From a virus, in IMG/VR virus record IMGVR_UViG_3300029940_000031: DNA of 64,000 bases, one strand, 5' to 3'. This document shows positions 15,016 to 59,768 of this stretch, one piece after another. The position numbers and the translations under genes were made by a program. Numbering within the stretch: the stretch's first letter is position 1; every line of letters begins with the position of its first letter. Below the pieces are notes generated by a model, which saw nothing but the letters and a program-made list of their open reading frames with translations, did no database searches and was not told the origin of the DNA.

Positions 15016-15125
15016 AATTACATTATAACATGCCGATATTACTAAAGCATTACTGTGGTATGAACTTCCTGTTTATAATTTGAGGAAAATAGCGAAGCGT
15101 CTTTGTTCCAAAAGGAGCAAATTTG

Positions 15126-16352
15126 ATGGATCATACACTTATACAAAAAAAAGAAGAGTTCAAAAGAAAAGCATTAATGAATTTCTTAAGTAGCATTATC
15201 GATGAAATTGATTTTCAAAGAAGGAATCAAGAAGACATCGCAAAAGAATTAGGTATTTCAGGAGGGGCACTCTCGAAAAACTTATCAGGTAAAAGTCAAT
15301 TTAATTTTTGGAATATGATTAAGTTACTTAATATCTTGTACGATGACAATGTCTTAAAGAAAAAAGAGATGATGCATAAGTTTTGCTCAGTTACAAAGAG
15401 CAAACAAAACTTGAGAATTGCTATGGAATATGCAAATTCAACAGGTGACTTAGAATTATTAAAATTAATTGTAGATATAGAAAAAACGTCATCGTTGGCT
15501 ATGAATAGAGAGTGGGCTTATGTATACGAATTGGTATGGATGCGAAGTAAAGGTGTCGTTAGTGGTAAAAACTTATTAGAGAAATTAGAAGATCGTAAGA
15601 AAAGTAAGGTAATTAGGACACAAGAAATGAAGGTTTTATACGGAATACTAACTTTTTATACGATGTATGATTTAGAGAAATTCAATTCATTGTTCGAATA
15701 CGCTGAAGTATTATTGCCTAAAGTCGAAGAAATTCAAGATGCTTTTATTAGAACAGCATATGCGGGTAGAATTAAAGAAGGCTTATCTTACGCCTATTTA
15801 ATGCAAGATAATGTTTATAGATCAAGAGAATTGTGTCATGAAATTATGCATTTAAAAGATGATAAAAATTGTTTTTCTCTTTTAAGGGTGTCAGCTTTGG
15901 TATACCTTGCAGAGTCTTATACATTCGAAAGTTACGAAAGAGCTTCTTGGTACATCAATAAATCGTTAGAAATGTTAGGTACATGCCATTTTGAGAGAGC
16001 GATTAAAAGAAAAGAAAATGTTATGAATACCTTTGCTTTTATTAAGCTTGTTTATAATAAAGAACTCGAGGAAATCGAAATATATAACGTATGCGAAGAA
16101 GCTTTTTATCAAGTGTTAATCGGTCATTCTGATGTGGCGGTAAAACTTTTAAAGGAAACTGAAAGAAAAGATGGGAAGTTGAGTCCTATGAAAAAATGCA
16201 TATTAGGATATGCGTTGAAAGACATTGATTTATTAAAAGAATCATTAGTAGATTTCGAGTGTGCAGGTAATAGGTTTTATAGCAAATTACCTAGAAAAAT
16301 GTTGGTAGAATTTTATAAAATTGGTATAATATATGAGGGTGATGCTAAATGA
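15126..16352 (+). CDS. aimR: AimR-like (RRNPP-type) peptide receptor and transcription regulator
   Basis: AAGGAG-N8-ATG; N-terminal HTH QEDIAKELGISGGALSKNLSG, then ~340 aa of helical TPR-like repeats; its stop overlaps (ATGA) a signal-peptide mini-ORF; sits next to the CI/Cro switch. Confidence 0.7.
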   Translation: MDHTLIQKKEEFKRKALMNFLSSIIDEIDFQRRNQEDIAKELGISGGALSKNLSGKSQFNFWNMIKLLNILYDDNVLKKKEMMHKFCSVTKSKQNLRIAMEYANSTGDLELLKLIVDIEKTSSLAMNREWAYVYELVWMRSKGVVSGKNLLEKLEDRKKSKVIRTQEMKVLYGILTFYTMYDLEKFNSLFEYAEVLLPKVEEIQDAFIRTAYAGRIKEGLSYAYLMQDNVYRSRELCHEIMHLKDDKNCFSLLRVSALVYLAESYTFESYERASWYINKSLEMLGTCHFERAIKRKENVMNTFAFIKLVYNKELEEIEIYNVCEEAFYQVLIGHSDVAVKLLKETERKDGKLSPMKKCILGYALKDIDLLKESLVDFECAGNRFYSKLPRKMLVEFYKIGIIYEGDAK

Positions 16353-42005: not shown

Positions 42006-43478
42006 ATGACGGGAATTAGTTTCTTTAGTTTTAATGGGGAGAGGAATCCGAATGTAATACCATTGCAGGGTAAAAAACGCCCTGCATGGGCTCCTTTGGA
42101 ACGTACATTTCTTGAAGTTCCCCACTATCCAGGTGGGCGTTTGATAAGAACACAAACAAAAATGAGGAAAATAATTGTACCAGTTTCATTATTTTATGAA
42201 TCTATGGAAGAAGCCGAAAAGTTAAAGGAAGAAATAGCTAATTGGCTTATTACAGACCAACCTCAAGAACTGATCTTTGATGATGAAAAAGATCGTACGT
42301 ATTTGGCCGTTATTGATGAATCTTTTGACCCACAGCAATTAGTGAATTTAGGAGAAGGAGTACTTACTTTTATTTGTGAAATGCCATATAAATTAGGTCC
42401 TACAAGAATCGTAGAATTTCAAGCTAATGAGCGTGGGCTAGTGGCGAATATTCAAAACAAAGGAAGTCTTGAATCTAACCCAATTATTAAAATTGAGGTA
42501 ACGAAACCCTCAACTTTTCTTGATGTATGGAATGGAGATAATTACTTTCGTATTGGATGGCCGCTTAGAATGGATCAGGTACCTGTTGAGAGAAATCAGC
42601 GTGTTATGTGGGATGAAATGTCTACCACTATAGGATGGACGGATGTTCCGAATGCAGAAGATATGGTAGGGGGAGGAGCTTTCAAAGTGGATGCAGGCTC
42701 ACGCCTAGTTCCGGTTTATTTAGGTGAAACAAACATAAAAGGATGGCATGGTTGCATAGCCAAAAAGAACATTCCGCAAGGGCCACTGCAAGACTTTATT
42801 ATGCAGGCGTATGTTGGGGTAAGAAGCTCGCATCCAGATCAAATGGGACGCGTTGAAATAGGTTTATTGGATGAAAACAGCGACTATGTAGCGCGTATTT
42901 CTATGAATGATGTCCATTGGCAAGCTGAACAAAATACAGGGTTCGCTAAGCTTGGCAACAAAAAGAAACCAGCTGGTGAGCAAGTACTTATAAATGAACC
43001 AGGGGACCATCCTACTACATGGAATCAATATCGTGGTCGCTTGTGGTTAGCACGTACCGGTAATAGGTGGGAAGCGTATATTTCTAAGTTTTTATGGAAT
43101 ACCGAAAAGGATGACTCGGAACGCTTTGTTGTGTGGGAAGATGAAAACAATGTGAATATGGACAAAGTGGCACAAGTTCAAATTAGCATCAGTCAATTTT
43201 CGGATAACATGTTCTGTACAGACATGAGCATTGATGATTTGAAAATCTGGAAGGTCAATATGAATACACAAGATAATCCACCTTACATTTTTGATGTTGG
43301 AGATAAGGTAGTTATTGACACCGAGCGAAGCCTTGTATCGATTAATGGTAAAAAAGTTATAAATTTAAAAGATATATTCAGTGATTATCCAGTTGTTAGC
43401 AAAGGATCAAACAAGCTTGAAATTATGCCTTCCGATGTGGGAATAGCCAAAGTAACATATAGGGAGAGATATCGATGA
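42006..43478 (+). CDS. Distal tail protein (Dit)
   Basis: Synteny after the tape measure gene. Confidence 0.75.
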   Translation: MTGISFFSFNGERNPNVIPLQGKKRPAWAPLERTFLEVPHYPGGRLIRTQTKMRKIIVPVSLFYESMEEAEKLKEEIANWLITDQPQELIFDDEKDRTYLAVIDESFDPQQLVNLGEGVLTFICEMPYKLGPTRIVEFQANERGLVANIQNKGSLESNPIIKIEVTKPSTFLDVWNGDNYFRIGWPLRMDQVPVERNQRVMWDEMSTTIGWTDVPNAEDMVGGGAFKVDAGSRLVPVYLGETNIKGWHGCIAKKNIPQGPLQDFIMQAYVGVRSSHPDQMGRVEIGLLDENSDYVARISMNDVHWQAEQNTGFAKLGNKKKPAGEQVLINEPGDHPTTWNQYRGRLWLARTGNRWEAYISKFLWNTEKDDSERFVVWEDENNVNMDKVAQVQISISQFSDNMFCTDMSIDDLKIWKVNMNTQDNPPYIFDVGDKVVIDTERSLVSINGKKVINLKDIFSDYPVVSKGSNKLEIMPSDVGIAKVTYRERYR

Positions 43479-46400
43479 GAGCACCTAGCGGCACACTTCA
43501 TGTCATTGATTTTAAAACGGACCAAATTGTTGCTAATATCCAGCCACAAAATTATTGGGATGATATACGTCATTGGGAGATTAAGAACAATATCGATACT
43601 TTAGAGTTTAAAGTGTTTGATAATACAGAGCATGCAGTGACACTTATGCAGCAAAATTTAGTATTAAAAGAAGTACGTGATGGACGGATTGTTCCTTATG
43701 TTATAAATAATGAAGTTGAAAAGGATTCAAGAGATAGATCACTTACTGTACGTACTTCGGGTGCATGGGTTCAGATAGCAAAAGACGGTTATATCATGCC
43801 GCAACGTATAGAAGGTAAAACAGTAAATCAATTCATGGATATGGCTCTTGTAGGTACGAAGTGGAAACGCGGAAAAACTGAGTATGCAGGTTTCCATACA
43901 ATGACCATCGATACCATTATAGATCCTCTTACCTTTTTAAAGAAGATAGCTGCTTTATTCGATTTAGAGGTTCAATACCGTGTGGAAGTAGTCGGTTCAC
44001 AGATTGTAGGTTGGTACGTGGATATGGTGAAAAAACGTGGTAGAGACACTGGTAAGGAAGTCACTTTAGGTAAAGATTTAGTCGGTGTTAGACGTATTGA
44101 GCACTCTCGGGATGTCTGTACTGCCTTAGTCGGATTCGTCCAGGGCGAAGGGGATACCATTATTACAGTTGAAAGCATTAATGATGGTTTACCTTATATT
44201 ACTGATAGCGATGCCTATCAACGCTGGAATGAGAACGGTAAACATAAATTTGGTTTCTATTCTCCGGAGACAGAAGAACAAAATATGACACCAAAGCGTC
44301 TCCTTACTCTTATGAAAACAGAGTTCGCAAAACGCGTTAATACTTCTGTTGTTTACGATGTAGAAGCAGCGGCTATAGGGCGTGTATTCGGATTATCTCA
44401 CGAGCTAATTAATGAAGGCGATACAATTCGAATTAAAGATACTGGATTTACACCGAAACTTTATTTAGAAGCACGGGTAATCGGTGGTGATGAATCATTT
44501 ACAGACCCTTCACAAGATAAATATGTATTTGGTGATTATCGCGAAATTACCGATCCGAATGAAGAAATGCGGAAATTATACAATAGGCTTCTTGGGCAAT
44601 TAACTGGTAAGGCAAACAAAGAATTGTTGGATCAGCTAGAAAAATTGGTAGAAGAGAACGGAAAAACAATTGAAACCATACGAGAAGAGTCTAAAGCCGT
44701 TAAAGAGTTAGCACAAAAAGTTCAAGAAAATTTGAAGAATAATACCGTTAATATCATTGAATCTAAGCAGCCACCCACAGAGAATCTTCAAATTGGTAAA
44801 ACGATATGGCGAGATATTAGTACCGGTAAGCCTGGTTTTTTAAAAGTGTGGAACGGTAAGGATTGGGAACTTCTTATTCCTGATGTAGAGTCAGTAAAGG
44901 AAGAAACACTGAAACAAGTTAATAAAGATATTCAGCTTACAAAAGAAGAATTAAACAAAAAAGTAGAAGAAGCGCAAAGTGAAACCAATGGACAATTTAA
45001 GGAAGTTAAAAACAGTCTCCAAGGAGTTTCACAAACTATTAAAAATGTACAAAACTCTCAAGGTGAAATTAATAAAACTGTTTCTGAAATGAAACAAACT
45101 AACGAGGGTTTTACTAAATCTATTGAATCGTTAACAAAAAAAGATGGTGAAATCGCTGAAAAATTAAATAAAGTGGTAGAGACTGCTGAAGTTACGAAAA
45201 AGACCATCTCTGAGGTGCAGCAAACAACTAATAATCTAAAGAAAACCACAACTGAAATTACAGAAAAAGCTGGCCAGGTTAGTGAGAAGTTGGAGAGCGT
45301 AGAAAAGAAAGTTAATAATGATAAAGCTGGAGGACGTAATCTTTTATTAGATTCAAATGTTAAATACGAAAAAACAGATTATCTAATCAATCCATATTCT
45401 TTAACTGAAAATTTTGTTGCAGGCGAGGAATACACTTTTGTAATTAAAGGAAGTGTCCCGCAAGGCCAACAATTTGGAATTTGGCAGAATGGTGGTTCAA
45501 ATAATGTTGGATATGCAACAAGTGCCTATGCTAACGGAATAACTTATGTAACTTTCAAAGCTGTTGCAACTACAAGTGGGAATGAACGGAGATTAAACTT
45601 ATATAATTATCCAAATAATGCTACAAAGGCAATTGTAGAATGGGTTGCTTTATATAAAGGGAATAAGCCGCAGGATTGGACACCAGCTCCAGAAAATCAA
45701 GTAACGAATGATGAATTCACTAAAAAAACAACCGAGATTGAAAAAAGTGTGAATGGTATTAAAGAAAGTATTAAAACGGTAGAAAAAACACAAGTCGATT
45801 TTAGCGAGCGTGTGACTACTGTAGAGAAAACAGCAGACGGTATTAAAGAAAAAGTTACTAGTTTACAAGAGATACAAACTAAACAAGGTACGCAGTTACA
45901 GGAGGCTAAAGCAGGTTGGGAAACTACTGCAAAAGCTTTGGAAGGAAAAGTTGAAATAAAAGATGTTGAAGATTATGTTGGTGGGATCGGTAATCAAACT
46001 GTATTACGGAATGTTCTTTGGAAGAATGACACAAAATATTGGGTTCTTCAATCAGGTGCAACAAGAGATACACAAGTCACTTATAAGGGATGCAATTCAC
46101 TTAGTGTTATTACTGCAGGTAATGCGAGCAATTTGTATAAAGGTGCATCGCACGAGTATATAAATGCGGGGCCTGGATGGAATTATGTTTTCTCTGCTTA
46201 CTTTTATACAGATAACAAAGCTAGTATAGATGCCGGAGCTGCTATCGAGCTCCAATGTTACGATGTAAACAATAAAATGATTAAAAGTTACTTGCAAGAA
46301 ATAACTATTTCACAAGGAACATGGATTCGTACACATGTGGCAGGGCTATTAATCGAAGGCACAAAAAAAGTTAAAGTGCTGTTTTGGGTTCGTAAAAATG

Positions 46401-47791
46401 GTCGTCTATGGATGGCACAACCCATGCTACAAATTGGTGATAAACCTTCTTCGTTTATGGAGAACCCTGTTGATATTGTAGATAAAGATAAAATCATGGA
46501 AGAATTGGCCGATAAGATAGCAACTAAAGATTACGATAGAAAAGTAACCGAATTAGAAAGAGGTATTAGCGCTACTGCAGAAGGCGTCGAAATAACATCG
46601 AAGAAACAAGAAAAGTTTATTAATGAGACTTACGCCGTTTATGTAAAAGAAACGGGTTCTAAACTTAAAGTTCTTGATGAAGGAATCCTTGCAGAAGTTA
46701 AAAAAGGTAATATCATCGCAGCTATTAACTTTTCATCGGAAAAATTAGAAATTGATGTTTCAAAGGTAGCCATTAATGCCGATACAATGGTGAAATGGTT
46801 AACCGCAAAGGGTATTGATACAAATATCATCAAAGTTAATGGCGATAAAATTACCATCGATAAAAACGGCGTTACTATTAAAATGTTAGACTTCCTTTTT
46901 GAAGATGAATGGGGAACGAAAACAACTGTTATGCCAAAACGAAATTTAATAGCCGATCATGATTTTTCTAGTGTTCCAAAATTGAACATAGGTAACCCAA
47001 ATTATCAGGGGTTTGGTGCTGGATATGGTCTACCTTGGAAAGTACAAGGAAACGGTGTAGTGATAGAAAATAACACTTTTATATTTAACTATGAACAAAT
47101 GGTAAATGCAGTCCGTGTCGACACGTATAATTATCCAGAAACAAAGGTTCAAAACGGGATTCATCCAGGAAACTCTTATACATTGTCAGCACATTATAGA
47201 ACCGCACAGATTAACGGTGTGCGTACAACTGCAAAACCACGATTGCAGGTATGTTTTGTTACGCCATTGGATGAAGTGAGTTATAAAATTTGGCATGAAA
47301 TATATAAAGATTTTCCAGAGCCATCTACATTTTATGGTGAAATTAGAAGGTATAATTTCACATTTACCGTTCCTAACAATTACAATCCACAAGAACATAT
47401 GATTGTAGTTAAAGTTACAGCTGCAAATGCGCAAGTTTCTGCGGGGAGGGCTGTTTGTGTTTCAGGGATAACATTGGTTAGTGGTAACTATGCTTGCATG
47501 TATAACTGGGATCGTGCGGCAGCAGAAAGGGCCGATGGTCTTCAACCGTTTAATAGAATTGCTATAGGCAGCGTAAATAACAACATAGGTCCAGCTGCTC
47601 ATGGGCAGACCTTTGATATAAGTACAGAAAAGGATGTATTCATAAATCAACCTATTCTAACGCAGGGAATAAATTTAGGGCGTAATAAAATGGGCCAAGC
47701 TGGGTCCATTCGTTTCTTTGATGGCGGTCAAGGCTATGGGTTTTATTTTATGGGAATGGGAGGACAATGGTACAAGCTACCTAACGTTTAG
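43475..47791 (+). CDS. Tail-associated protein / receptor-binding fibre (Tal-type N-terminus, coiled-coil middle, beta-rich C-terminal modules)
   Basis: 1438 aa; ATGA coupling to Dit; long heptad-like region at aa ~380-620. Confidence 0.8.
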   Translation: MRAPSGTLHVIDFKTDQIVANIQPQNYWDDIRHWEIKNNIDTLEFKVFDNTEHAVTLMQQNLVLKEVRDGRIVPYVINNEVEKDSRDRSLTVRTSGAWVQIAKDGYIMPQRIEGKTVNQFMDMALVGTKWKRGKTEYAGFHTMTIDTIIDPLTFLKKIAALFDLEVQYRVEVVGSQIVGWYVDMVKKRGRDTGKEVTLGKDLVGVRRIEHSRDVCTALVGFVQGEGDTIITVESINDGLPYITDSDAYQRWNENGKHKFGFYSPETEEQNMTPKRLLTLMKTEFAKRVNTSVVYDVEAAAIGRVFGLSHELINEGDTIRIKDTGFTPKLYLEARVIGGDESFTDPSQDKYVFGDYREITDPNEEMRKLYNRLLGQLTGKANKELLDQLEKLVEENGKTIETIREESKAVKELAQKVQENLKNNTVNIIESKQPPTENLQIGKTIWRDISTGKPGFLKVWNGKDWELLIPDVESVKEETLKQVNKDIQLTKEELNKKVEEAQSETNGQFKEVKNSLQGVSQTIKNVQNSQGEINKTVSEMKQTNEGFTKSIESLTKKDGEIAEKLNKVVETAEVTKKTISEVQQTTNNLKKTTTEITEKAGQVSEKLESVEKKVNNDKAGGRNLLLDSNVKYEKTDYLINPYSLTENFVAGEEYTFVIKGSVPQGQQFGIWQNGGSNNVGYATSAYANGITYVTFKAVATTSGNERRLNLYNYPNNATKAIVEWVALYKGNKPQDWTPAPENQVTNDEFTKKTTEIEKSVNGIKESIKTVEKTQVDFSERVTTVEKTADGIKEKVTSLQEIQTKQGTQLQEAKAGWETTAKALEGKVEIKDVEDYVGGIGNQTVLRNVLWKNDTKYWVLQSGATRDTQVTYKGCNSLSVITAGNASNLYKGASHEYINAGPGWNYVFSAYFYTDNKASIDAGAAIELQCYDVNNKMIKSYLQEITISQGTWIRTHVAGLLIEGTKKVKVLFWVRKNGRLWMAQPMLQIGDKPSSFMENPVDIVDKDKIMEELADKIATKDYDRKVTELERGISATAEGVEITSKKQEKFINETYAVYVKETGSKLKVLDEGILAEVKKGNIIAAINFSSEKLEIDVSKVAINADTMVKWLTAKGIDTNIIKVNGDKITIDKNGVTIKMLDFLFEDEWGTKTTVMPKRNLIADHDFSSVPKLNIGNPNYQGFGAGYGLPWKVQGNGVVIENNTFIFNYEQMVNAVRVDTYNYPETKVQNGIHPGNSYTLSAHYRTAQINGVRTTAKPRLQVCFVTPLDEVSYKIWHEIYKDFPEPSTFYGEIRRYNFTFTVPNNYNPQEHMIVVKVTAANAQVSAGRAVCVSGITLVSGNYACMYNWDRAAAERADGLQPFNRIAIGSVNNNIGPAAHGQTFDISTEKDVFINQPILTQGINLGRNKMGQAGSIRFFDGGQGYGFYFMGMGGQWYKLPNV

Positions 47792-49737: not shown

Positions 49738-49767
49738 AGACCGCCCTTTTTTTGGGAAGGGCGGTCT
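49738..49767. terminator. Bidirectional terminator
   Basis: AGACCGCCCTT / AAGGGCGGTCT 11-bp stem. Confidence 0.85.
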
Positions 49768-49771
49768 AATA

Positions 49772-50074
49772 TTATTTACTTTCGTTTAATATACTTTGAA
49801 GTGATTGTTCTACCTTATGCATTTCACCTAATACAGGGTTGTCATAGTCACTTGAACAATCAAGATATGCTCTTACTCCACCAAAAATTTTGAAATCCAC
49901 TCTAGATAGTGAAGTATGTTCTTTAGTTTCTAAAATGGTTACAGCTGATTTATAGCGTTTAATTATATCATCAATCATTCTTTTGCCTTTTACTTGATTT
50001 TCTTTTTCAAGAGTTTGAATGATGTTATTCATTTGTTTTTTTAATTCAGTAATATTTTGGTCCTGTGTAAGCAT
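49772..50074 (-). CDS. Putative immunity protein for the LXG toxin
   Basis: 100 aa, acidic, immediately 3' of the toxin gene (25-nt gap). Confidence 0.6.
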   Translation of the reverse strand: MLTQDQNITELKKQMNNIIQTLEKENQVKGKRMIDDIIKRYKSAVTILETKEHTSLSRVDFKIFGGVRAYLDCSSDYDNPVLGEMHKVEQSLQSILNESK

Positions 50075-50099
50075 TTAAATACCTCCATTTTCATTTCAA

Positions 50100-51470
50100 T
50101 TACTTATTTGGTACTTTTCGTACATCTGAAATCCATTCTAAAGGCCAGTTTTGTGGAAGTAAAACTTGATCTCCACCACCTTTCAACGTAGTCCCGCTCA
50201 TTGTGTATTGTTCAGCTACTTTTCCAAGATTAAGAGTTTCGCCTTCCGGAACTTTAATCGTAGCCTCATACATTCTACTATTTTTCCATTCCGGTAAAAG
50301 AGCTGTATCTAGTTTCGCTTGTATTCGATTTTGAGCGGGGACAGTTGTAGCGAAACCACCGCCTGCATCAGCACTATGCCCAAATGTACGATATAATGTT
50401 ACCTCTTCATTAGTTTTTACAGTTCTAAATACTCCATCTGTAAATGAATCTCCAATCCAAGGTGGTAAATTCGCTTTTTCTATTTCAGTTACTTGATGAT
50501 CGATACTTGTAGCATATTTTTTTATGTCTGAGGCACGATCAGCTTTTTTAATAGTATTAGCAGCTTCAACTGCATTCGCAGTCATTTTTACCCCTTTGCC
50601 AACTTTGGCAATTTTTCCGACTGGTGTAAGACCAGCTACAGCCATTCCTCCAGCAAAAACCCTTTCCCAAGTGGAAAGTTTTTCGCCAGTAGATGGATCG
50701 ATACCGTCCCAAGCACGACGAACATCGTATTCACCACTTATTTCACCAGCAATATCTCTAGCTAATTTTTTACCATCAAATCCTTTTTCCTCCGAAGAAA
50801 GTTTACCACACATTGCACCTTCTTCGATTGATTTATCAGCCTGACGCTTCCTATCTTCTTCAATCGCTTGAATAGAAGTAGTCCACTCCATATTCAACAC
50901 TTGCGTACTAAATGTTCCGCTTGCAGGACTAAATCCTTTGCCACTTTGCACTTCCGCAAGACCTTGTGCGATACTCGCAGCTAGTTGAAGTGCTGTAGCA
51001 TAGTTATTGCTAGACGCTTGATTAAATTCATATAGGTGATTTAACTTTTCTTGAAGTTTGTGTCTCATGACAGTAAAAAGATTCGCCATAGCGTCCATAC
51101 TTGGCATCGGCATAGCTTGACTGATAGCTTCCATACTTGCCTTCATTCGGTCAATTTCTCGAATTTGTTCTAATATTTCTTGTTCAATTACATCAGTTGA
51201 AGCGACCTGTGATTGAAATTGACTTGGAAAGGCATCATTCTGATGAATTAGTTCTTCACACAAGTAAATAATCCCTTGGGCTAAGGGACGGAAGGTTTGT
51301 ACAAAAAATGCTTTGGCACTACTATATGTTTGTCCTTGTAGAACAGTATCAATTGCAAAAGCATCAATCGACTGAATAACTTGTTCCATACCTTGAATGG
51401 TAGCGGTACATACAGCATTCATATCTTGTGTTTGTGTATGCACTTCCCCTAAATACATATTTAAACTCAA
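50100..51470 (-). CDS. LXG-domain polymorphic toxin (T7SSb substrate type) with a TNT/NADase-like C-terminal domain
   Basis: N-terminus IDAFAIDTVLQGQTYSSAKAFF (LxG); C-terminus LYRTFG...GGGFATT...ALLPEW...GKVAEQ...LKGGGDQVLLP resembles the TNT-type pattern (tentative). Confidence 0.7.
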   Translation of the reverse strand: MSLNMYLGEVHTQTQDMNAVCTATIQGMEQVIQSIDAFAIDTVLQGQTYSSAKAFFVQTFRPLAQGIIYLCEELIHQNDAFPSQFQSQVASTDVIEQEILEQIREIDRMKASMEAISQAMPMPSMDAMANLFTVMRHKLQEKLNHLYEFNQASSNNYATALQLAASIAQGLAEVQSGKGFSPASGTFSTQVLNMEWTTSIQAIEEDRKRQADKSIEEGAMCGKLSSEEKGFDGKKLARDIAGEISGEYDVRRAWDGIDPSTGEKLSTWERVFAGGMAVAGLTPVGKIAKVGKGVKMTANAVEAANTIKKADRASDIKKYATSIDHQVTEIEKANLPPWIGDSFTDGVFRTVKTNEEVTLYRTFGHSADAGGGFATTVPAQNRIQAKLDTALLPEWKNSRMYEATIKVPEGETLNLGKVAEQYTMSGTTLKGGGDQVLLPQNWPLEWISDVRKVPNK

Positions 51471-51539
51471 AAATCTCCCCCCCCTTTTTTAAACAAGTAA
51501 ATCATACCAATTTAAGGAGGAAAATGTAAAAATATTTTT

Positions 51540-51881
51540 TTATTTAGCATCAATAATATCAATAAATTTCAACGTTATTTTATTATAAAATGCATCCGTA
51601 CAAATTATAGATTTATTCAACGGATCAATATCAATGACGGTCATATAGCTAGTAAGTAAAAATCCATCTTCATAATATGTAATCAATATTTCTTCTTCAG
51701 AAAGCAGCGAACATAATAGTGTATTCTCAATAAGTTCTTGTTCATCCTGGGTTAATGTAGGGCGTTCTACTTTTGTCTTGTTTTTAATAATCTCACAGAT
51801 ACCTACGAATTGTTCTGGCATCGCTGCGAATGGAGTCCATTTAACCATTCCTCTTCCTTTTGGCATATTAGCGTTGTTCAT
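51540..51881 (-). CDS. yolD: YolD-like protein
   Basis: MPKGRGMVKWTPFAAMPEQF motif; overlaps the polymerase stop. Confidence 0.8.
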   Translation of the reverse strand: MNNANMPKGRGMVKWTPFAAMPEQFVGICEIIKNKTKVERPTLTQDEQELIENTLLCSLLSEEEILITYYEDGFLLTSYMTVIDIDPLNKSIICTDAFYNKITLKFIDIIDAK

Positions 51882-53143
51882 GATTTATGTCCCCCTAACA
51901 ATGTGTTTCTGTATCTTGCTGTTGCACTATTTGTATACGAAATTCCTCTTAATATGCTGTTCTTACCAAATTTAGTGCGTATTTCGTCCATTACTTTCGT
52001 TAGTTTCATTTCTTTTTCTCGTTGTATTACATTATAGAATAGTGAGATTTGTTCTTCGCCTTCATGGATTAAGTTAGTTAAAGAAACATTTATGGATCTA
52101 ATGGGCTCCCCAGTGTAAAACTTGTGTAAAAAATATGTACAAATCTTATATATATCCATTGTTAAATTGGTCGGTCGGTTCATAGTGTGAGTTTTTCTGA
52201 AGCCACCAGAGTAATTTCTGCTATAACCAATGGAAAAATGAACAGTTTGAGCTAGTTTGTTTTGCCTTCGCATTCGATAACAAACTTCTTCTATATGCTC
52301 CAGTAGAATAATTGGAAACTCTTCTATGGTGTAATCGCGCATAAGTATTTGGCTTTTACCAATAGAAGTTGTTGCTGGAACATATTTTTCTGATATACGG
52401 CTAAAATCTATGCCGTTGCTATGTAAGTGCAATTCTTCGCCAATGACCCCGAAGCTTTGTTTTAAGTATTTAAGTGGGTATTGCGCTAAGTCTCCGATTG
52501 AATGAATTCCTTTTCGGTTTAACTTCGCTTCTGTTTTACCCGAAATCCCCCAAAACTTACTAAGTGGTTGTATTGGCCATAATTTTATGGGTACATTTTC
52601 GTACTTCCAGTATGCTATGCAATCTTTCGTTTTCTTCGCTTCTACATCTAAGGCAACCTTGCTCATTAAAGGGTTTGGACCAATTCCTATCGTGCATTCA
52701 ATTCGCGTCTTAGCATATATCTCTCGTTTGAATTTCAATGCAAATTCATATGGATCATTAGCAAATAAATGAATACTATCCGTAATGTCCATAAAGAACT
52801 CATCGATGGAATATTGGTGAAAATCCTCAATTGGCACGTATTGTAGGGCCAACTTAGTAATGAAATTAGAACATTTTATGTAAGTACTCATAATTGGATT
52901 TATCACAAGGATATCTTTACGACGTGGTATCTCATACAATCTCGCCATTTTCTTAACGCCTAATGCTTTTAATGGTGGAGTTGCAGCCAAAACAATTGAA
53001 CCACTCCTATTCACATCACCAACTACAGCCAATTTAGTATGAAGTGGGTCTAATCCCATTTTGATGCACGATACACTGGCATAGAACGAACGAAGATCTA
53101 CACATAAAACAATTCGATTTGGCAATATTGAATAGTCATACAC
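51878..53143 (-). CDS. Y-family (UmuC/UvrX-like) translesion DNA polymerase
   Basis: VLCVDLRSFYASVSC... N-terminal motif; 421 aa; GTG after GGGGG. Confidence 0.85.
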   Translation of the reverse strand: MYDYSILPNRIVLCVDLRSFYASVSCIKMGLDPLHTKLAVVGDVNRSGSIVLAATPPLKALGVKKMARLYEIPRRKDILVINPIMSTYIKCSNFITKLALQYVPIEDFHQYSIDEFFMDITDSIHLFANDPYEFALKFKREIYAKTRIECTIGIGPNPLMSKVALDVEAKKTKDCIAYWKYENVPIKLWPIQPLSKFWGISGKTEAKLNRKGIHSIGDLAQYPLKYLKQSFGVIGEELHLHSNGIDFSRISEKYVPATTSIGKSQILMRDYTIEEFPIILLEHIEEVCYRMRRQNKLAQTVHFSIGYSRNYSGGFRKTHTMNRPTNLTMDIYKICTYFLHKFYTGEPIRSINVSLTNLIHEGEEQISLFYNVIQREKEMKLTKVMDEIRTKFGKNSILRGISYTNSATARYRNTLLGGHKS

Positions 53144-53163: not shown

Positions 53164-53200
53164 AGAACGTTAGTTCTTATTATATACGAATGTATGTTCT
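53164..53200 (-). promoter_or_regulatory. Two LexA (Cheo) boxes flanking a TATAAT -10 element
   Basis: AGAACGTTAGTTCT (53164-77) and CGAATGTATGTTCT (53187-200) match GAAC-N4-GTTC; minus-strand TATAAT at 53184-53179. Confidence 0.75.
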
Positions 53201-53255
53201 TTTATGAAGAGGTTTTTATAAAAAAATAAAAATAGCCCCACCGGTTTTAGTGAAG

Positions 53256-53776: not shown

Positions 53777-55072
53777 GTGATATTTGAGTTAGTTAGTTCA
53801 GCTGCTGTCGGTGGTGTAGTCTTTCTATCAAAAATGCATCAAAAAGGAGCAACAAATGATGCATCCAAGATTCAAAGGATCTGCGCGAACTGCGGATTAA
53901 AAGTAAAAGAAGGGAAAGAGACTAGGACTATACAGCTGCTTCGCAAAACGAGGAATAATTGGGGAGTTGAATATGCGTATAGAATACCGCTTGGTCTTAG
54001 CTTCTCCGATTTCGAACAAAAAATACAACATTTAGAGGATGGATTAAATCACAAGAGCAAGGTTTATGATTTCAAACTACAAGACTTCAAATCTCTTCGA
54101 CTGCGAAAAGATATCTTAAAACAAATACAAAACATCATAAATAAGAAAAAACTCGTTAGAAAGGAAATTGAGCTGTCTTACGATGGTTTATTAAAAATAC
54201 GCGTTTATGAGAAAGGAATACCTAATTTCGTTAAATTTGTAGAGGATATGATGAGGCAATGTAGAGGTTGGGAGGTTCCGATTGGTTATACGAGGGATGG
54301 ATTGATAAAACATGATTTTGATCAACTAGCGCACATGATATCAGCCGGCATGACGGATATGGGTAAATCAAATGTATTAAAACTTATAATTACATCCCTG
54401 GTACGCAACCAACCAGAAAATACAAAGCTATTCCTTATAGATTTGAAGGGTGGTCTCTCTTTTAACCGTTACAGATTCTTAAACCAGGTCGAATCAATTG
54501 CGAAGAATCCAGAGGAAGCCCTAGAGACTCTAAGGGAATTGCAAGATAAACTGAATGCTAGAAACGAATACTTACTAGAAAAAGGATACGAAGATATAAA
54601 AGAAGCTGGGGATCCAGTACGTTACTTTGTAATTGTTGATGAAGCAGCCGACATAGCGCCATATCAGGAGTGCAGGGACATCATTGTTGATATAGGGCGT
54701 CGTGGCAGGGCAGCGGGATTTCGCTTGGTGTATGCGACACAGTACCCAACAAACGAAGCGTTACCATCGCAGCTACGACAAAACATTGGCGCTCGTGTTT
54801 GTTTTAGATTACAGACAGAGGCAGGGAGCCGTGCTGTACTTGATGAGGGCGGCGCAGAAATGCTTCCTAACATAAAGGGGAGAGCGATATACCAAACAAA
54901 TGAGAAGAAGGTCCTACAGACGGTTTATATCGATAATAAGCAAATAGATAACATCATAAAGCCACACATTAACATCAGAGCGAGGAAGGAGCATGAAGAT
55001 GCAAAAACTAGCCATGAAGGAAGCGAGAACGGAAAGTATACTCTTGAGCTTGAAGAAACTCGGCTTTCTTAG
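53777..55072 (+). CDS. FtsK/SpoIIIE-family DNA translocase
   Basis: N-terminal TM; Walker A GMTDMGKSN; Walker B YFVIVDEAAD. Confidence 0.85.
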   Translation: MIFELVSSAAVGGVVFLSKMHQKGATNDASKIQRICANCGLKVKEGKETRTIQLLRKTRNNWGVEYAYRIPLGLSFSDFEQKIQHLEDGLNHKSKVYDFKLQDFKSLRLRKDILKQIQNIINKKKLVRKEIELSYDGLLKIRVYEKGIPNFVKFVEDMMRQCRGWEVPIGYTRDGLIKHDFDQLAHMISAGMTDMGKSNVLKLIITSLVRNQPENTKLFLIDLKGGLSFNRYRFLNQVESIAKNPEEALETLRELQDKLNARNEYLLEKGYEDIKEAGDPVRYFVIVDEAADIAPYQECRDIIVDIGRRGRAAGFRLVYATQYPTNEALPSQLRQNIGARVCFRLQTEAGSRAVLDEGGAEMLPNIKGRAIYQTNEKKVLQTVYIDNKQIDNIIKPHINIRARKEHEDAKTSHEGSENGKYTLELEETRLS

Positions 55073-57502: not shown

Positions 57503-58003
57503 ATGTCTAATGAAGTTTTGCCTTTCACAGTAAGACTAGCTACTCCAGAAGATTTTTGGAATATATCAAATATAAACAAGCAAGTTCAACAGTTACATAT
57601 AGAGGGAAGACCAGATATTTACTCTGATACTTCAGCTTCTTTGGATCACAATGCATACGAAGAGTGGCTTAATGATAAAACCATAGAGATATTTGTAGTA
57701 GAGGCCAATAATAAAGAGATTCTTGCTTATTTAATCTTAGATATTAAAGAACCAGCCGAAAATCCAAAGTTAGTTGAGCGAAAAGTACTCTTTATCCGCA
57801 ATATTGGTGTAAGTGAAATATGTCAAGGAACAGGAATAGGAAAAATATTAGTACAAAAAGCATTTGAGTATGCTAAAGAAATACAAGCAACAAGTGTAGA
57901 ATTAAATGTTTTAGAATTTAACAAGAAGGCTATACAATTCTATGAAAAACTTGGATTTAAAACACAGAGTCGGCAAATGGAATTTGTATTACCTGATGCT
58001 TAA
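57503..58003 (+). CDS. GNAT N-acetyltransferase
   Basis: IRNIGVSEICQGTGIGKILV...FYEKLGF (motif A). Confidence 0.85.
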   Translation: MSNEVLPFTVRLATPEDFWNISNINKQVQQLHIEGRPDIYSDTSASLDHNAYEEWLNDKTIEIFVVEANNKEILAYLILDIKEPAENPKLVERKVLFIRNIGVSEICQGTGIGKILVQKAFEYAKEIQATSVELNVLEFNKKAIQFYEKLGFKTQSRQMEFVLPDA

Positions 58004-59297: not shown

Positions 59298-59768
59298 ATG
59301 ACTACAAATAAGGACTACATTCGTTATATTCGGGAAAAAGTAGGGCACGATTTAATATTTCTTAATTTTGCTGGAGGTATTGTTTATAACGAACGAAATG
59401 AAATCCTTTTACAAAAGAGGGGAGATAGAAATGAGTGGGGTCTTCCAGGTGGTGCTATGGAACTTGGAGAATCTCTTGAAGAAACCGCTAAACGAGAAAT
59501 ACTTGAGGAGACAGGATTAAATGTTGAAGTTGAACATCTTATAGGTGTCTACTCTAAATACTCTGGTGAGTTTCCGAACGGAGATAAAGCTCAGACTATC
59601 GTTCATTGTTTTCAATGCAAGCCAATTGATGGGGAACTTACTACAGACGGTATTGAAACTTTAGATTTAAAATACTTCCCAATAGACCAAATACCGAAAT
59701 TATTTACAAAACTACACGAAGATGCCTTAGAAGATTGGCTTTCAAAAAGAAAAGGTGTATTTAGATAA
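59298..59768 (+). CDS. NUDIX hydrolase
   Basis: Nudix box GGAMELGESLEETAKREILEETGL. Confidence 0.9.
   Translation: MTTNKDYIRYIREKVGHDLIFLNFAGGIVYNERNEILLQKRGDRNEWGLPGGAMELGESLEETAKREILEETGLNVEVEHLIGVYSKYSGEFPNGDKAQTIVHCFQCKPIDGELTTDGIETLDLKYFPIDQIPKLFTKLHEDALEDWLSKRKGVFR

What the first reader, a model, noticed from the sequence alone, without database searches (positions are those of the whole stretch)
49772..51530. LXG polymorphic toxin with a TNT/NADase-like C-terminus and cognate immunity gene carried as a phage moron next to the lysis cassette
The 456-aa protein has a clear LXG N-terminal domain (...DTVLQGQTYSSAKAFF...), the targeting domain of T7SSb-secreted antibacterial toxins. Its C-terminal ~150 aa (LYRTFG..GGGFATT...ALLPEW...GKVAEQ...KGGGDQVLLP) resembles the TNT-type NAD+ glycohydrolase pattern. 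A 100-aa acidic ORF follows at 25 nt, in the immunity position. The toxin has its own promoter-like TTTACA-N18-TATGAT (51530-51501, minus strand). No Lap/WXG helper genes are adjacent, so secretion would depend on host esx genes. Alternatively, the toxin could be released at lysis. A temperate phage-plasmid would thus arm its host for interbacterial competition, or use the pair for addiction.
Basis: partly seen in the sequence, partly recalled or inferred. Interest (0 to 1): 0.65.

Follow-up and report, generated by a model that had tools for sequence, protein, structure and literature searches.

The report
Phage-plasmid LXG toxin with NADase-like tip
A Bacillus cereus-group phage-plasmid carries a two-gene bacterial weapon: a secreted toxin whose tip has the fold of enzymes that destroy the cofactor NAD+, and a small antidote protein. 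It is a real but fairly ordinary example of a known kind, built from a widespread toxin/antidote family that nobody has tested.

Summary
ORFs of 456 aa (50100-51470, minus) and 100 aa (49772-50074, minus) lie 25 nt apart between the phage lysis cassette and a yolD/Y-family polymerase operon. The element matches a ~72-kb B. thuringiensis/B. cereus phage-plasmid at 100% identity.

- **Toxin architecture:** LXG (aa 9-176) and PT-TG (aa 237-295) both pass Pfam thresholds. The C-terminal tip has no Pfam or PDB sequence match.
- **Fold:** a confident AlphaFold2 model (pLDDT 89) matches only TNT-type NAD(P)+ glycohydrolases (Tne2, Serratia Rhs1-CT, AfNADase, Tse6). The family keeps an invariant Arg (R361), an aromatic residue (F373) and an invariant Gln (Q435), spaced as in those enzymes.
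- **Distribution:** the tip family has at least 1,433 clusters at 50% identity and sits on LXG, Rhs, CdiA and eCIS scaffolds across phyla.
- **Immunity:** 48 of the 60 genes recovered directly downstream of homologous tips are homologues of the 100-aa ORF, so cognate immunity is strongly supported. It models as a four-helix bundle with one invariant Arg and resembles no known NADase immunity protein.
- **Cargo slot:** sibling phage-plasmids hold other toxins or a PP2C phosphatase in the same position.

NADase activity, secretion and promoter use remain inferred. No Lap or WXG helper genes are present. Verdict: a new member of a known kind, of moderate interest.

The parts
50100..51470 (-). Toxin gene, 456 aa, TTG start. 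It is a mosaic of LXG, PT-TG and an NADase-like tip.
   Evidence: ORF listing. Pfam calls LXG and PT-TG. RefSeq annotates the same start and names it 'pre-toxin TG domain-containing protein', WP_000056021.1. It matches phrog_24213 over its full length.
50877..51470 (-). LXG trafficking domain (aa 1-198), the T7SSb targeting module.
   Evidence: Pfam LXG covers aa 9-176. Residues 1-224 are 86% identical to a B. toyonensis p246 LXG toxin that has a different (RNase A-like) tip and its own Lap1/Lap2-type genes.
50583..50876 (-). Linker plus PT-TG pre-toxin domain (aa 199-296).
   Evidence: Pfam PT-TG covers aa 237-295, E 4.8e-16. This segment alone is shared (71% identity) with the WXG100-type toxin of HD1011 plasmid 3, which marks recombination junctions near aa 198 and 296.
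50100..50582 (-). Toxin tip (aa 297-456 plus stop). The folded domain is about aa 332-456. It is predicted to be a TNT-type NAD(P)+ glycohydrolase with R361, F373, W395, N397, D434 and Q435 conserved.
   Evidence: AlphaFold2 model with pLDDT 89.2 and pTM 0.81. Foldseek top hits are Tne2, Serratia Rhs1-CT, AfNADase and Tse6. Family conservation is shown. At least 1,433 homologous clusters exist.
49772..50074 (-). Cognate immunity gene, 100 aa, four-helix bundle, invariant Arg68 (Pfam PF27174 'YeeD').
   Evidence: It starts 25 nt after the toxin stop and has its own GGAGG RBS. Of the 60 ORFs recovered directly downstream of homologous tips, 48 are homologues of it. R68 is the only invariant residue. 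AlphaFold2 gives pLDDT 80.6, all helical.
51501..51530 (-). Promoter-like site TTTACA-N18-(TG)gTATGAT, upstream of the toxin.
   Evidence: The consensus scan gives 10 of 12 matches with an extended -10 TG and the sequence is. It is not above chance by count. It is not positionally conserved in sibling elements, which carry their own TTTACA elements.
51475..51484 (-). Shine-Dalgarno-like G-rich RBS (GGGGGGGGAG) just upstream of the TTG start.
   Evidence: Read directly from the sequence.
49738..49767 (.). Bidirectional intrinsic terminator closing the toxin-immunity pair. It faces the converging endolysin gene.
   Evidence: Terminator scan: 11-13 bp stem with 7 GC pairs and T-runs on both strands. 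Sequence.
51540..53143 (-). Upstream, co-oriented yolD (51540-51881) and Y-family DNA polymerase (51878-53143) genes. No terminator separates them from the toxin gene.
   Evidence: Pfam calls YolD at 1e-24 and IMS, IMS_C and IMS_HHH. The terminator scan finds none in the 69-nt gap.
53164..53208 (-). Promoter-like TTCATA-N18-TATAAT overlapped by two LexA (Cheo)-like boxes. It is the probable SOS-controlled start of the Y-polymerase/yolD (and possibly toxin) transcription unit.
   Evidence: The only perfect GAAC-N4-GTTC core in the 64-kb window lies here. One such site is about what chance predicts, so only its position is suggestive.

Best explanation
The locus is a two-gene polymorphic toxin-immunity cassette carried as accessory cargo by a temperate siphovirus-type phage-plasmid of the Bacillus cereus group.

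**The toxin (456 aa) is a three-part mosaic.**
- An N-terminal LXG domain targets it to the host type VIIb secretion system.
- A PT-TG pre-toxin linker follows.
- The ~125-residue C-terminal tip has the palm fold of TNT-type NAD(P)+ glycohydrolases, closest to Tne2.

**How it most likely works.**
- In the lysogen, the 100-aa four-helix immunity protein binds the tip and blocks its active-site cleft. Its single invariant arginine (R68) probably does this.
- When the toxin is exported and enters a neighbouring cell that lacks the immunity gene, the tip hydrolyses NAD+/NADP+ and stops growth.
- Predicted active-site residues are R361, the aromatic F373 and the invariant Q435.
- Carrying the element therefore arms and protects its host in contact-dependent competition among kin.

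**Shown:** gene structure, domain architecture, fold class, conservation of the toxin-immunity adjacency, the mosaic junctions, and the variable cargo slot.

**Inferred:** NADase chemistry, the inhibition mechanism, T7SS export using host-supplied Lap/WXG helpers, and expression in the lysogen from its own promoter and/or by read-through from the SOS-type yolD/polymerase operon.
For: **Architecture and fold**
- LXG and PT-TG pass Pfam's curated cut-offs.
- The tip model is confident: pLDDT 89.2, pTM 0.81.
- Foldseek against the PDB returns, in order, Tne2 6b12 (E 1.3e-3, probability 1.00, target-normalised TM 0.77), Serratia Db10 Rhs1-CT 6xtd (probability 1.00, TM 0.67), AfNADase 8pmr and Tse6 4zv4/4zv0. 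The next hit has probability 0.18.
- 6xtd is an experimentally shown NAD(P)+ glycohydrolase of the 'TNT-like family' (PMC10539506).

**Active-site motif**
- These enzymes share an essential aromatic residue and a strictly conserved Gln: Tne2 F330/Q387, Tse6 W344/Q413, Rhs1-CT F1386/Q1452, TNT F727/Q822 (PMC6398120).
- Our family has G-x-[FY] at 371-373 and an invariant Q435, 62 residues apart. The solved enzymes have spacings of 57 to 69.
- R361 is invariant. No Glu is invariant.

**Polymorphic-toxin behaviour**
- There are 1,433 clusters and the domain is always C-terminal. It occurs on LXG, PT-TG, Rhs, CdiA-type and eCIS scaffolds.
- 63 loci come from Bacillota, Gammaproteobacteria and Actinomycetota.

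**Immunity**
- An 84-101 aa ORF starts 2-25 nt after the toxin stop in nearly all loci. Of the 60 downstream ORFs recovered, 48 cluster with the window's ORF, with phmmer E-values down to 1e-18.
- R68 is the only invariant residue. Unrelated NADase immunity proteins each insert a basic residue into the active site.

**Context**
- The window carries terminase, SPP1-type portal, tape measure, Dit, holin, amidase, ParA, Replic_Relax and AimR.
- Sibling plasmids of rep_cluster_1698 hold other T7SS toxins, a PP2C phosphatase or a hypothetical gene in the same slot.
- The same tip and immunity gene are fused to a WXG100-type N-terminus on a B. tropicus megaplasmid.

**Precedent**
- Prophage-borne B. 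subtilis LXG toxins have no helper genes in their operons, yet are delivered in a YukE- and T7SS-dependent manner (PMC8321402).
- TelB is an LXG NADase exported by Esx (PMC5555719).
Against: - There is no sequence-level link to any characterised NADase. Pfam TNT gives nothing at E<=10. Two profile searches of all PDB sequences give nothing.
- Foldseek E-values are modest (1e-3 to 1e-1), with 12-19% identity.
- Residue equivalences (F373, Q435) come from spacing and conservation, not from a structural superposition.
- The same fold class includes true ADP-ribosyltransferases.
- No Lap1/Lap2, WXG100 or DUF4176 helper is encoded on the element. The nearest LXG relative does have them, so export competence is uncertain.
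- I did not check that the host has a T7SSb.
- The promoter is only a consensus match.
- The immunity protein resembles no known NADase immunity protein.
Confidence: 0.6

Rival explanations
1. The tip is an ADP-ribosyltransferase. It would modify a macromolecule (protein, rRNA or tRNA), as the Tre-type Rhs toxins do, instead of hydrolysing NAD+ to nicotinamide and ADP-ribose.
For: TNT-type NADases belong to the ART-fold superclass, and ART-fold polymorphic toxins with macromolecular targets are common (titles and abstracts). The family has an invariant Arg on a beta-strand and a G-x-F-[AST]-T-T motif that recalls the R and S-T-S motifs of R-S-E ARTs. Tne5 shows that fold alone does not predict chemistry.
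Against: No ART with a macromolecular target appears among the Foldseek hits. Every confident hit is a glycohydrolase. The position expected for the catalytic Glu carries an invariant Gln (Q435), and no Glu is invariant in the family. A conserved Gln paired with an aromatic residue is the signature of the NADase group.
Confidence: 0.13
2. The pair serves mainly the mobile element. It could act as a post-segregational killing (addiction) module that stabilises the phage-plasmid, or as a toxin-antitoxin-like abortive-infection module against competing phages. Secretion would then be irrelevant.
For: The element replicates as a low-copy plasmid with ParA partitioning, so stability modules would be useful to it. 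No secretion helpers are encoded. NAD+ depletion is a common abortive-infection mechanism (general knowledge).
Against: The toxin keeps complete LXG and PT-TG trafficking modules, and its LXG domain is 86% identical to one from a canonical Lap-LXG operon. The same tip and immunity gene travel on Rhs, CdiA and eCIS delivery scaffolds, which makes sense only for exported toxins. The pair matches no PADLOC defence model. Sibling plasmids do without it.
Confidence: 0.08
3. The toxin is released by phage-induced lysis, not by T7SS, and acts on bystander cells during induction.
For: The pair sits next to the holin-endolysin cassette. It lies downstream of an SOS-type promoter with Cheo-like boxes and no intervening terminator, so expression could rise on induction. 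No helper genes are present.
Against: It is transcribed convergently to the lysis genes, not with them, and a bidirectional terminator separates the two. Known LXG toxins require cell contact and T7SS and do not act from supernatants (PMC5555719; PMC8321402). The protein has no evident module for entering cells from solution.
Confidence: 0.07
4. The gene is an export-incompetent remnant. The LXG module was grafted without its Lap1/Lap2 partners, so the toxin is made but not delivered, and only the immunity gene matters, by protecting against the same toxin from competitors.
For: The graft junction lies exactly at the start codon. B. toyonensis has ATGAGTTTAAATATG overlapping its DUF3958 gene, whereas the window has TTGAGTTTAAATATG preceded by unrelated sequence. 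Lap proteins are reported to be needed for LXG export in Lactobacillales (PMC13492133).
Against: The ORF is intact and identical across at least 23 contigs read, and the index lists it in 71 blocks of the collection. It has a strong RBS. B. subtilis LXG operons also lack helper genes and are still delivered. B. cereus-group genomes carry other Lap-LXG loci that could supply helpers in trans.
Confidence: 0.1

Closest known systems
TelB/TipB of Streptococcus intermedius (LXG NADase exported by the Esx/T7SSb pathway; PMC5555719)
   Same: An N-terminal LXG domain, a central region and a C-terminal NAD+-degrading tip of the TNT structural class. The immunity gene lies immediately downstream. It mediates contact-dependent interbacterial antagonism.
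   Different: TelB's tip is a recognisable sequence homologue of M. tuberculosis TNT, with predicted catalytic residues R626 and H661. Ours gives no TNT match by HMMER. TelB's operon includes WXG100-like (Lap) helpers, and ours has none. TelB is chromosomal, and ours is on a phage-plasmid. The activity of ours is untested.
Tne2/Tni2 of Pseudomonas protegens (T6SS PAAR NADase; PDB 6B12)
   Same: It is the best structural match (target-normalised TM 0.77, probability 1.0). The spacing of the aromatic residue and conserved Gln is similar (F330/Q387 against F373/Q435). 'Tne2-like' tips were predicted on T7SS and Rhs proteins by Tang et al. 2018, as cited in PMC10539506.
   Different: No sequence similarity is detectable with two profiles, and structural identity is 15%. 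Tni2 (153 aa, inserting its C-terminal Arg153) is unrelated to our 100-aa four-helix immunity protein. The delivery system also differs (T6SS against T7SSb).
Serratia marcescens Db10 Rhs1-CT/RhsI1 (PDB 6XTD; PMC10539506)
   Same: It is the second-best structural match. It has an S-G-F motif (ours is G-G-F), and its essential Phe, Arg and strictly conserved Gln were shown by mutagenesis. The paper also demonstrates exchange of toxin-tip and immunity units by recombination.
   Different: It is encapsulated in an Rhs shell and delivered by T6SS. Its immunity protein has a different, mostly beta fold and inserts His131. There is no detectable sequence similarity to our tip.
B. subtilis prophage-borne LXG toxins YokI/YokJ (SPbeta), YobL/YobK (prophage 6), YqcG/YqcF (skin), and the LXG toxin of plasmid pBS32 (PMC8321402)
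   Same: LXG toxin-immunity pairs carried by temperate-phage-derived elements. Their operons lack WXG or Lap helper genes and depend on the host T7SS (the yukE operon). They act in kin competition.
   Different: Their tips are nucleases, not NADase-like. They sit on integrated prophages, not an extrachromosomal phage-plasmid. They belong to a different species group.
MuF polymorphic toxins of temperate phages (PMC5576092) and Tne5 (PMC13285283)
   Same: MuF toxins are polymorphic toxins carried by temperate phages. Tne5 is an ART-fold NAD(P)+ glycohydrolase tip found on Rhs, PAAR, CDI and LXG scaffolds, which is the same range of scaffolds as our family.
   Different: MuF toxins use a phage head-protein domain, not LXG. 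Peptides around Tne5's key residues (AQFDGGVS-K-IAWGVNR and VIDQTPVT-E-AVISKLPNSNI) do not resemble our motifs.

Membership tests
LXG polymorphic toxins (Pfam PF04740; T7SSb substrates) | An N-terminal LXG domain scoring above the curated threshold. | tested here: met
   46 bits against a cut-off of 26.5, aa 9-176. Residues 1-224 are 86% identical to an annotated LXG toxin in a Lap1-Lap2-LXG-immunity operon.
LXG polymorphic toxins (Pfam PF04740; T7SSb substrates) | Adjacent Lap1 (DUF3130/TIGR04197) and Lap2 (DUF3958) or WXG100-like targeting partners. | tested here: not met
   None is found in the window by tblastn or in the plasmid annotation. This is not a universal feature, because B. subtilis LXG operons also lack them.
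LXG polymorphic toxins (Pfam PF04740; T7SSb substrates) | EssC/T7SSb-dependent export and contact-dependent killing. | not testable with these tools
   This requires secretion and competition assays. I did not check for an ess locus in the host chromosome. B. cereus ATCC 14579 is reported to have a T7SS (cited in PMC13492133).
Polymorphic toxin-immunity cassette | A variable C-terminal toxin module shared between unrelated delivery scaffolds. | tested here: met
   The tip occurs on LXG, PT-TG, Rhs, CdiA-type (TPS/PT-VENN) and eCIS_core proteins. Junctions near aa 198 and 296 are seen against sibling toxins.
Polymorphic toxin-immunity cassette | A cognate immunity gene immediately downstream that travels with the toxin tip. 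| tested here: met
   Of the 60 downstream ORFs recovered, 48 are homologues of the window's 100-aa ORF, at gaps of 2-25 nt, across phyla.
TNT family (Pfam PF14021, tuberculosis necrotizing toxin) | A sequence match to the TNT profile or to TNT, AfNADase or TelB-type sequences. | tested here: not met
   No Pfam hit at E<=10 on the isolated tip. No PDB sequence hit with profiles A1 or A5.
TNT-type NAD(P)+ glycohydrolase structural class (TNT, Tse6/Tne1, Tne2, Rhs1-CT, AfNADase) | The palm-domain fold. | tested here: met
   Foldseek top hits are exclusively members of this class, with probability 0.90-1.00 and target-normalised TM up to 0.77, from a model with pLDDT 89.
TNT-type NAD(P)+ glycohydrolase structural class (TNT, Tse6/Tne1, Tne2, Rhs1-CT, AfNADase) | An essential aromatic residue and a strictly conserved Gln in the cleft. 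| tested here: inconclusive
   Aromatic F/Y373 and invariant Q435 are present with compatible spacing of 62, against 57-69 in solved enzymes. No residue-level superposition was available to confirm the equivalence.
TNT-type NAD(P)+ glycohydrolase structural class (TNT, Tse6/Tne1, Tne2, Rhs1-CT, AfNADase) | NAD(P)+ hydrolysis to nicotinamide and ADP-ribose. | not testable with these tools
   This needs a biochemical assay.
Tne2/Tni2 family | Sequence homology of the toxin to Tne2 and of the immunity protein to Tni2. | tested here: not met
   No HMMER hit to 6B12 chains. The immunity model has no PDB match better than E 0.32, and the matches are generic helical bundles.
Tne5 family (P. gergoviae Rhs-CT) | Similarity around key residues K1392 and E1482. 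| tested here: not met
   Primer-derived Tne5 peptides have no counterpart in our motifs.
R-S-E / H-Y-E ADP-ribosyltransferases | An invariant catalytic Glu on the beta-5-equivalent strand. | tested here: not met
   No Glu is invariant. The conserved residue in the GG-x-[DE]-Q-[IV]-L-L-P strand is Gln.
Phage-plasmid | A complete phage morphogenesis and lysis module together with plasmid partition and replication functions on one extrachromosomal replicon. | tested here: met
   The window carries terminase, SPP1-type portal, tape measure, Dit, holin, amidase, ParA, Replic_Relax, FtsK and AimR. It is 100% identical over the locus to the circular 71.8-kb plasmid pBTHD521-3.

The most novel reading that the evidence does not exclude
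The tip and its ~90-aa four-helix, Arg-bearing immunity protein define a new, very large, cross-phylum family of NAD(P)+-degrading polymorphic toxins. It would be a further 'Tne'-type family, distinct in sequence from TNT, Tne1, Tne2, Rhs1-CT and Tne5, and paired with a new immunity fold. In addition, B. cereus-group phage-plasmids keep a dedicated cargo slot directly downstream of an SOS-controlled yolD/Y-polymerase operon. T7SS toxins with either LXG or WXG100 heads are swapped in this slot, so toxin expression and spread are coupled to DNA damage and prophage induction.
Probability: 0.3. Interest if true: 0.55.

Novelty: new member of a known kind. Interest (0 to 1): 0.4.

Why it matters
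If the prediction holds, this locus gives a tractable example of a toxin/immunity family that is abundant but has no Pfam model for the toxin and no experimental study. The family has at least 1,433 clusters at 50% identity and occurs in streptococci, enterococci, Listeria, Bacillus, Xenorhabdus, Photorhabdus, Vibrio and Pseudomonas. The locus also shows that extrachromosomal phage-plasmids of the B. cereus group move T7SS weapons between strains through a defined variable slot. That is relevant to kin discrimination, strain replacement in soil, food and insect niches, and lysogenic conversion. It does not change the current picture, because LXG NADases and prophage-borne LXG toxins are already established.

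Tried and rejected
- **Sequence-level assignment of the tip failed.** Pfam at E<=10 on two tip fragments, NCBIfam, phmmer of the full protein against PDB sequences, and profile searches of PDB sequences with A1 and the more divergent A5 all returned nothing relevant.
- **BFVD viral structure search:** no meaningful match.
- **PADLOC:** no defence-system match for toxin or immunity.
- **PHROGs:** only unknown-function families.
- **6xtd was first suspected to be the Photorhabdus ADP-ribosyltransferase Tre23.** This was rejected. The paper's data-availability statement shows it is the Serratia Db10 NADase.
- **Identity with Tne5 was considered** because of the shared range of scaffolds. It was rejected on residue spacing and primer-derived peptides.
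- **Q421 as the catalytic Gln was rejected** in favour of Q435, because Q421 is replaced (W, V or Y) in divergent members.
- **Similarity of the immunity protein to Tsi6, Tni2 or RhsI1** was not found.
- **Tang et al. 2018 (the Tne2 paper)** could not be retrieved.
- **The Cheo-box count across the window is not above chance**. Only the position of the boxes is suggestive.
- **The FtsK/SpoIIIE gene at 53777-55072 was considered as a possible EssC.** It was rejected because it is 431 aa and paired with a replication-relaxation gene, which is a plasmid DNA-handling arrangement.
Full report
**1. What is in the sequence**

On the minus strand there is a 456-aa ORF (50100-51470, TTG start behind a G-rich RBS). 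After a 25-nt gap containing a GGAGG RBS, a 100-aa ORF follows (49772-50074). A strong bidirectional hairpin terminator (49738-49767) closes the pair and faces the converging endolysin gene.

It matches 10 of 12 positions and has an extended -10 TG. Such matches are no more frequent here than in shuffled sequence (12 found, 16.8 expected), so it is a plausible promoter and not a demonstrated one.

Its pI is 6.7, so this is wrong.

**2. Context**

The locus is 100% identical to the circular plasmids pBTHD521-3 (B. thuringiensis HD521, 71.8 kb) and NZ_CP016597 (B. cereus).

The window encodes a full siphovirus module: terminase, SPP1-type portal, tape measure, Dit, a 1,438-aa tail fibre, holin and amidase. 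It also encodes ParA, FtsK/SpoIIIE with Replic_Relax, and an AimR arbitrium receptor. The plasmid annotation agrees. The element is therefore a temperate phage-plasmid.

The toxin pair sits between the endolysin (plus strand) and a co-oriented yolD/Y-family polymerase operon. No T7SS core, WXG100 or Lap gene is on the element.

**3. The toxin is a three-part mosaic**

Pfam calls LXG (aa 9-176) and PT-TG (aa 237-295), both above the curated cut-offs.

- Residues 1-224 are 86% identical to a B. toyonensis p246 toxin. That toxin has an RNase A-like tip and lies in a canonical TIGR04197 (Lap1-type) - DUF3958 (Lap2-type) - LXG - immunity operon.
- The similarity begins exactly at the start codon, which is ATG there and TTG here.
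- Residues 199-456 are 87.6% identical to a 334-aa protein on a B. tropicus megaplasmid whose N-terminus is a short WXG100-type domain. Its downstream gene is 82% identical to our 100-aa ORF.
- Residues 198-296 alone are shared (71%) with a third toxin that has yet another tip.

The junctions therefore lie near aa 198 and aa 296. Both the head and the tip are exchanged, as expected for a polymorphic toxin.

**4. The tip**

The last ~160 residues have no hit in Pfam at E<=10, in NCBIfam or in PDB sequences. Homologues returned with precomputed annotation from a newer Pfam release also carry no domain on this region.

The family is nevertheless large. A profile search of 1.84 billion representatives gave 1,433 clusters at E<=1e-3 and 747 at E<=1e-10. 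The domain is always at the extreme C-terminus of proteins of roughly 150 to 2,963 aa. A sample of 55 carriers shows LXG, PT-TG, Rhs, CdiA-type (TPS, Fil_haemagg, DUF637, PT-VENN) and eCIS_core scaffolds.

An AlphaFold2 model built on 51 sequences is confident (pLDDT 89.2, pTM 0.81). Foldseek against the PDB returned the following:

| Structure | Protein | E-value | Probability | TM (target-normalised) |
|---|---|---|---|---|
| 6b12 | Tne2 | 1.3e-3 | 1.00 | 0.77 |
| 6xtd | Serratia Db10 Rhs1-CT | 6.6e-3 | 1.00 | 0.67 |
| 8pmr / 8pms | Aspergillus NADase | 1.2e-2 to 4.8e-2 | 0.90-0.97 | 0.33-0.38 |
| 4zv4 / 4zv0 | Tse6 | 1.6e-2 to 9.5e-2 | 0.92-0.99 | 0.44-0.50 |

The next hit has probability 0.18. 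6XTD is the Serratia marcescens Db10 Rhs1-CT, which was shown experimentally to be an NAD(P)+ glycohydrolase of the 'TNT-like family' (PMC10539506).

These enzymes share little sequence. They do share an essential aromatic residue and a strictly conserved Gln: Tne2 F330/Q387, Tse6 W344/Q413, Rhs1-CT F1386/Q1452 and TNT F727/Q822.

In our family:
- The invariant or near-invariant residues are R361, G364, G371, aromatic F/Y373, W395, N397, P408, G431, D/E434, Q435 and W446.
- F373 and Q435 are 62 residues apart. The T6SS enzymes have spacings of 57-69.
- G-G-F373 mirrors S-G-F1386 of Rhs1-CT.
- Q421 is not conserved in divergent members.
- No Glu is invariant, which argues against a classical transferase.

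The family is not Tne5. Peptides deduced from the Tne5 mutagenesis primers do not resemble our motifs.

**5. The immunity gene**

I fetched 63 loci encoding the tip from reference genomes. They include Streptococcus oralis and S. mitis, Enterococcus, Listeria, Paenibacillus, Bacillus, Xenorhabdus, Photorhabdus, Vibrio, Pseudomonas and Microbacterium.

In almost all of them an ORF of 84-101 aa starts 2-25 nt after the toxin stop. Of the 60 downstream ORFs recovered, 48 form one homology cluster with the window's ORF, with phmmer E-values down to 1e-18. This linkage holds whatever delivery scaffold the toxin uses. That is the expected signature of a cognate immunity protein.

Microbacterium loci and a few divergent loci use other downstream genes.

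- The family alignment has a single invariant residue, R68, in a G-x-x-R-x-Y-x-D...D-Y motif.
- Hagan et al. found that three unrelated NADase immunity proteins each place a basic residue (Lys62, Arg153, His131) in the catalytic site. A similar role for R68 is an inference.
- The protein models as a four-helix bundle (pLDDT 80.6).
- It has no significant PDB match and does not resemble Tni2, Tsi6 or RhsI1.
- The B. cereus-group members carry the recent Pfam family PF27174 'YeeD'. All other members are unannotated.

**6. The slot is a cargo site**

Sibling plasmids of the same replicon type (rep_cluster_1698) share the lysis cassette and the yolD/polymerase genes. They differ in what lies between:

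| Plasmid | Cargo in the slot |
|---|---|
| HD1011 plasmid 3 | WXG100-type toxin with a different tip, plus a 166-aa gene |
| pBTBD59S1 | 472-aa toxin plus a CdiI-type immunity gene |
| NR1 plasmid | PP2C phosphatase |
| GSICC 30237 plasmid | hypothetical gene |

The exact 456-aa protein is indexed in 71 blocks of the public collection, mostly on 50-200 kb contigs. In every place shown it sits in the yolD...endolysin slot, although the endolysin type, holin and tail fibre vary around it.

**7. Expression and delivery (inferred)**

The pair is convergent to the late lysis genes and co-oriented with yolD and the polymerase gene. No terminator lies in the 69-nt gap between yolD and the toxin gene.

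The polymerase promoter (TTCATA-N18-TATAAT, 53208-53179) is overlapped by two LexA-like boxes. One of them contains the only perfect GAAC-N4-GTTC core in the window. One such site is roughly what chance predicts, so only its position is suggestive. Expression from the toxin's own promoter in the lysogen, boosted by SOS read-through, is therefore plausible.

Export would need the host T7SSb and trans-encoded helpers. The precedent is strong: B. subtilis LXG operons contain no WXG100 genes, three of them are on prophage elements, and all six tested toxins are delivered in a YukE- and T7SS-dependent manner (PMC8321402). By contrast, Lap proteins are reported to be required in Lactobacillales, so export competence remains the weakest link.

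**8. Comparison and verdict**

The locus works like TelB/TipB (an LXG NADase) and like the prophage-borne B. subtilis LXG toxins.

- By membership it is an LXG/PT-TG polymorphic toxin.
- By fold its tip belongs to the TNT-type NADase class, nearest to Tne2.
- By sequence its tip belongs to none of TNT, Tne1, Tne2, Rhs1-CT(Db10) or Tne5, and its immunity protein is a separate family.

The finding is a new member of a known kind. Its main value is as an entry point to a large, uncharacterised toxin/immunity family and to cargo exchange in B. cereus-group phage-plasmids.

My confidence is about 0.95 that this is a genuine toxin-immunity pair. It is about 0.65-0.7 that the chemistry is NAD(P)+ hydrolysis, and about 0.6 for the whole mechanism as stated.

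Noticed in passing
window 53164-53208 (minus strand): Two LexA/Cheo-like boxes (AGAACATACATTCG and AGAACTAACGTTCT) overlap the -35/-10 of the promoter-like site in front of the Y-family polymerase/yolD operon. The second contains the only perfect GAAC-N4-GTTC core in the 64-kb window. No terminator separates this operon from the toxin gene, so SOS-coupled read-through is possible.
   Followed up: partly
L002 6009-7341 (B. tropicus pBEMB20-1, NZ_CP078082.1): The same PT-TG, tip and immunity cassette (87.6% and 82% identity) is fused to a short WXG100-type N-terminus instead of LXG. It again lies downstream of yolD and the Y-polymerase gene, but on a 404-kb megaplasmid with no phage genes nearby. 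The yolD-polymerase-toxin block seems to move as a unit.
   Followed up: partly
window 49772-50074; L074-L081 (gene at 8397-8699): The immunity protein hits the recent Pfam family PF27174, named 'YeeD' after a B. subtilis gene. From memory, B. subtilis yeeD lies close to the yeeF LXG toxin locus, so it may be an orphan immunity gene of this NADase-like toxin family.
   Followed up: no
window 59298-59768 (+) and 57503-58003 (+): A NUDIX hydrolase (Pfam E 4e-22; it also matches the PADLOC candidate family PDC-S07 at 1.7e-11) and a GNAT acetyltransferase sit on the same element as a predicted NADase. A NUDIX enzyme could process ADP-ribose or NAD-derived nucleotides. No link was tested.
   Followed up: no
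window 15123-16352 (+): An AimR-family arbitrium receptor (Pfam E 1e-40) is present, so this phage-plasmid probably uses peptide signalling for its lysis-lysogeny decision.
   Followed up: no
window 51455-51470 versus L072 4088-4140: The start of the toxin gene reads TTGAGTTTAAATATG. In the B. toyonensis Lap-LXG operon it reads ATGAGTTTAAATATG and overlaps the DUF3958 gene. Similarity ends exactly at the start codon, which pinpoints where the LXG module was grafted without its helper genes.
   Followed up: partly
L033, L035, L036, L041 (Microbacterium); L055, L056, L064-L066: Homologous toxin tips in Microbacterium are followed by an unrelated ~300-aa ORF that overlaps the toxin stop. A divergent subgroup is followed by a distinct 104-123-aa family. 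These are alternative immunity solutions for one toxin fold.
   Followed up: no
window 43475-47791 (+) versus NZ_CP010109.1 27337-31655: The tail-fibre gene is one 1,438-aa ORF in the window. In pBTHD521-3 it is annotated as two overlapping CDSs, which suggests a frameshift or sequencing difference in that record. Across contigs carrying the identical toxin, the tail fibre, holin and endolysin types vary, so the element is extensively mosaic around a constant toxin slot.
   Followed up: no
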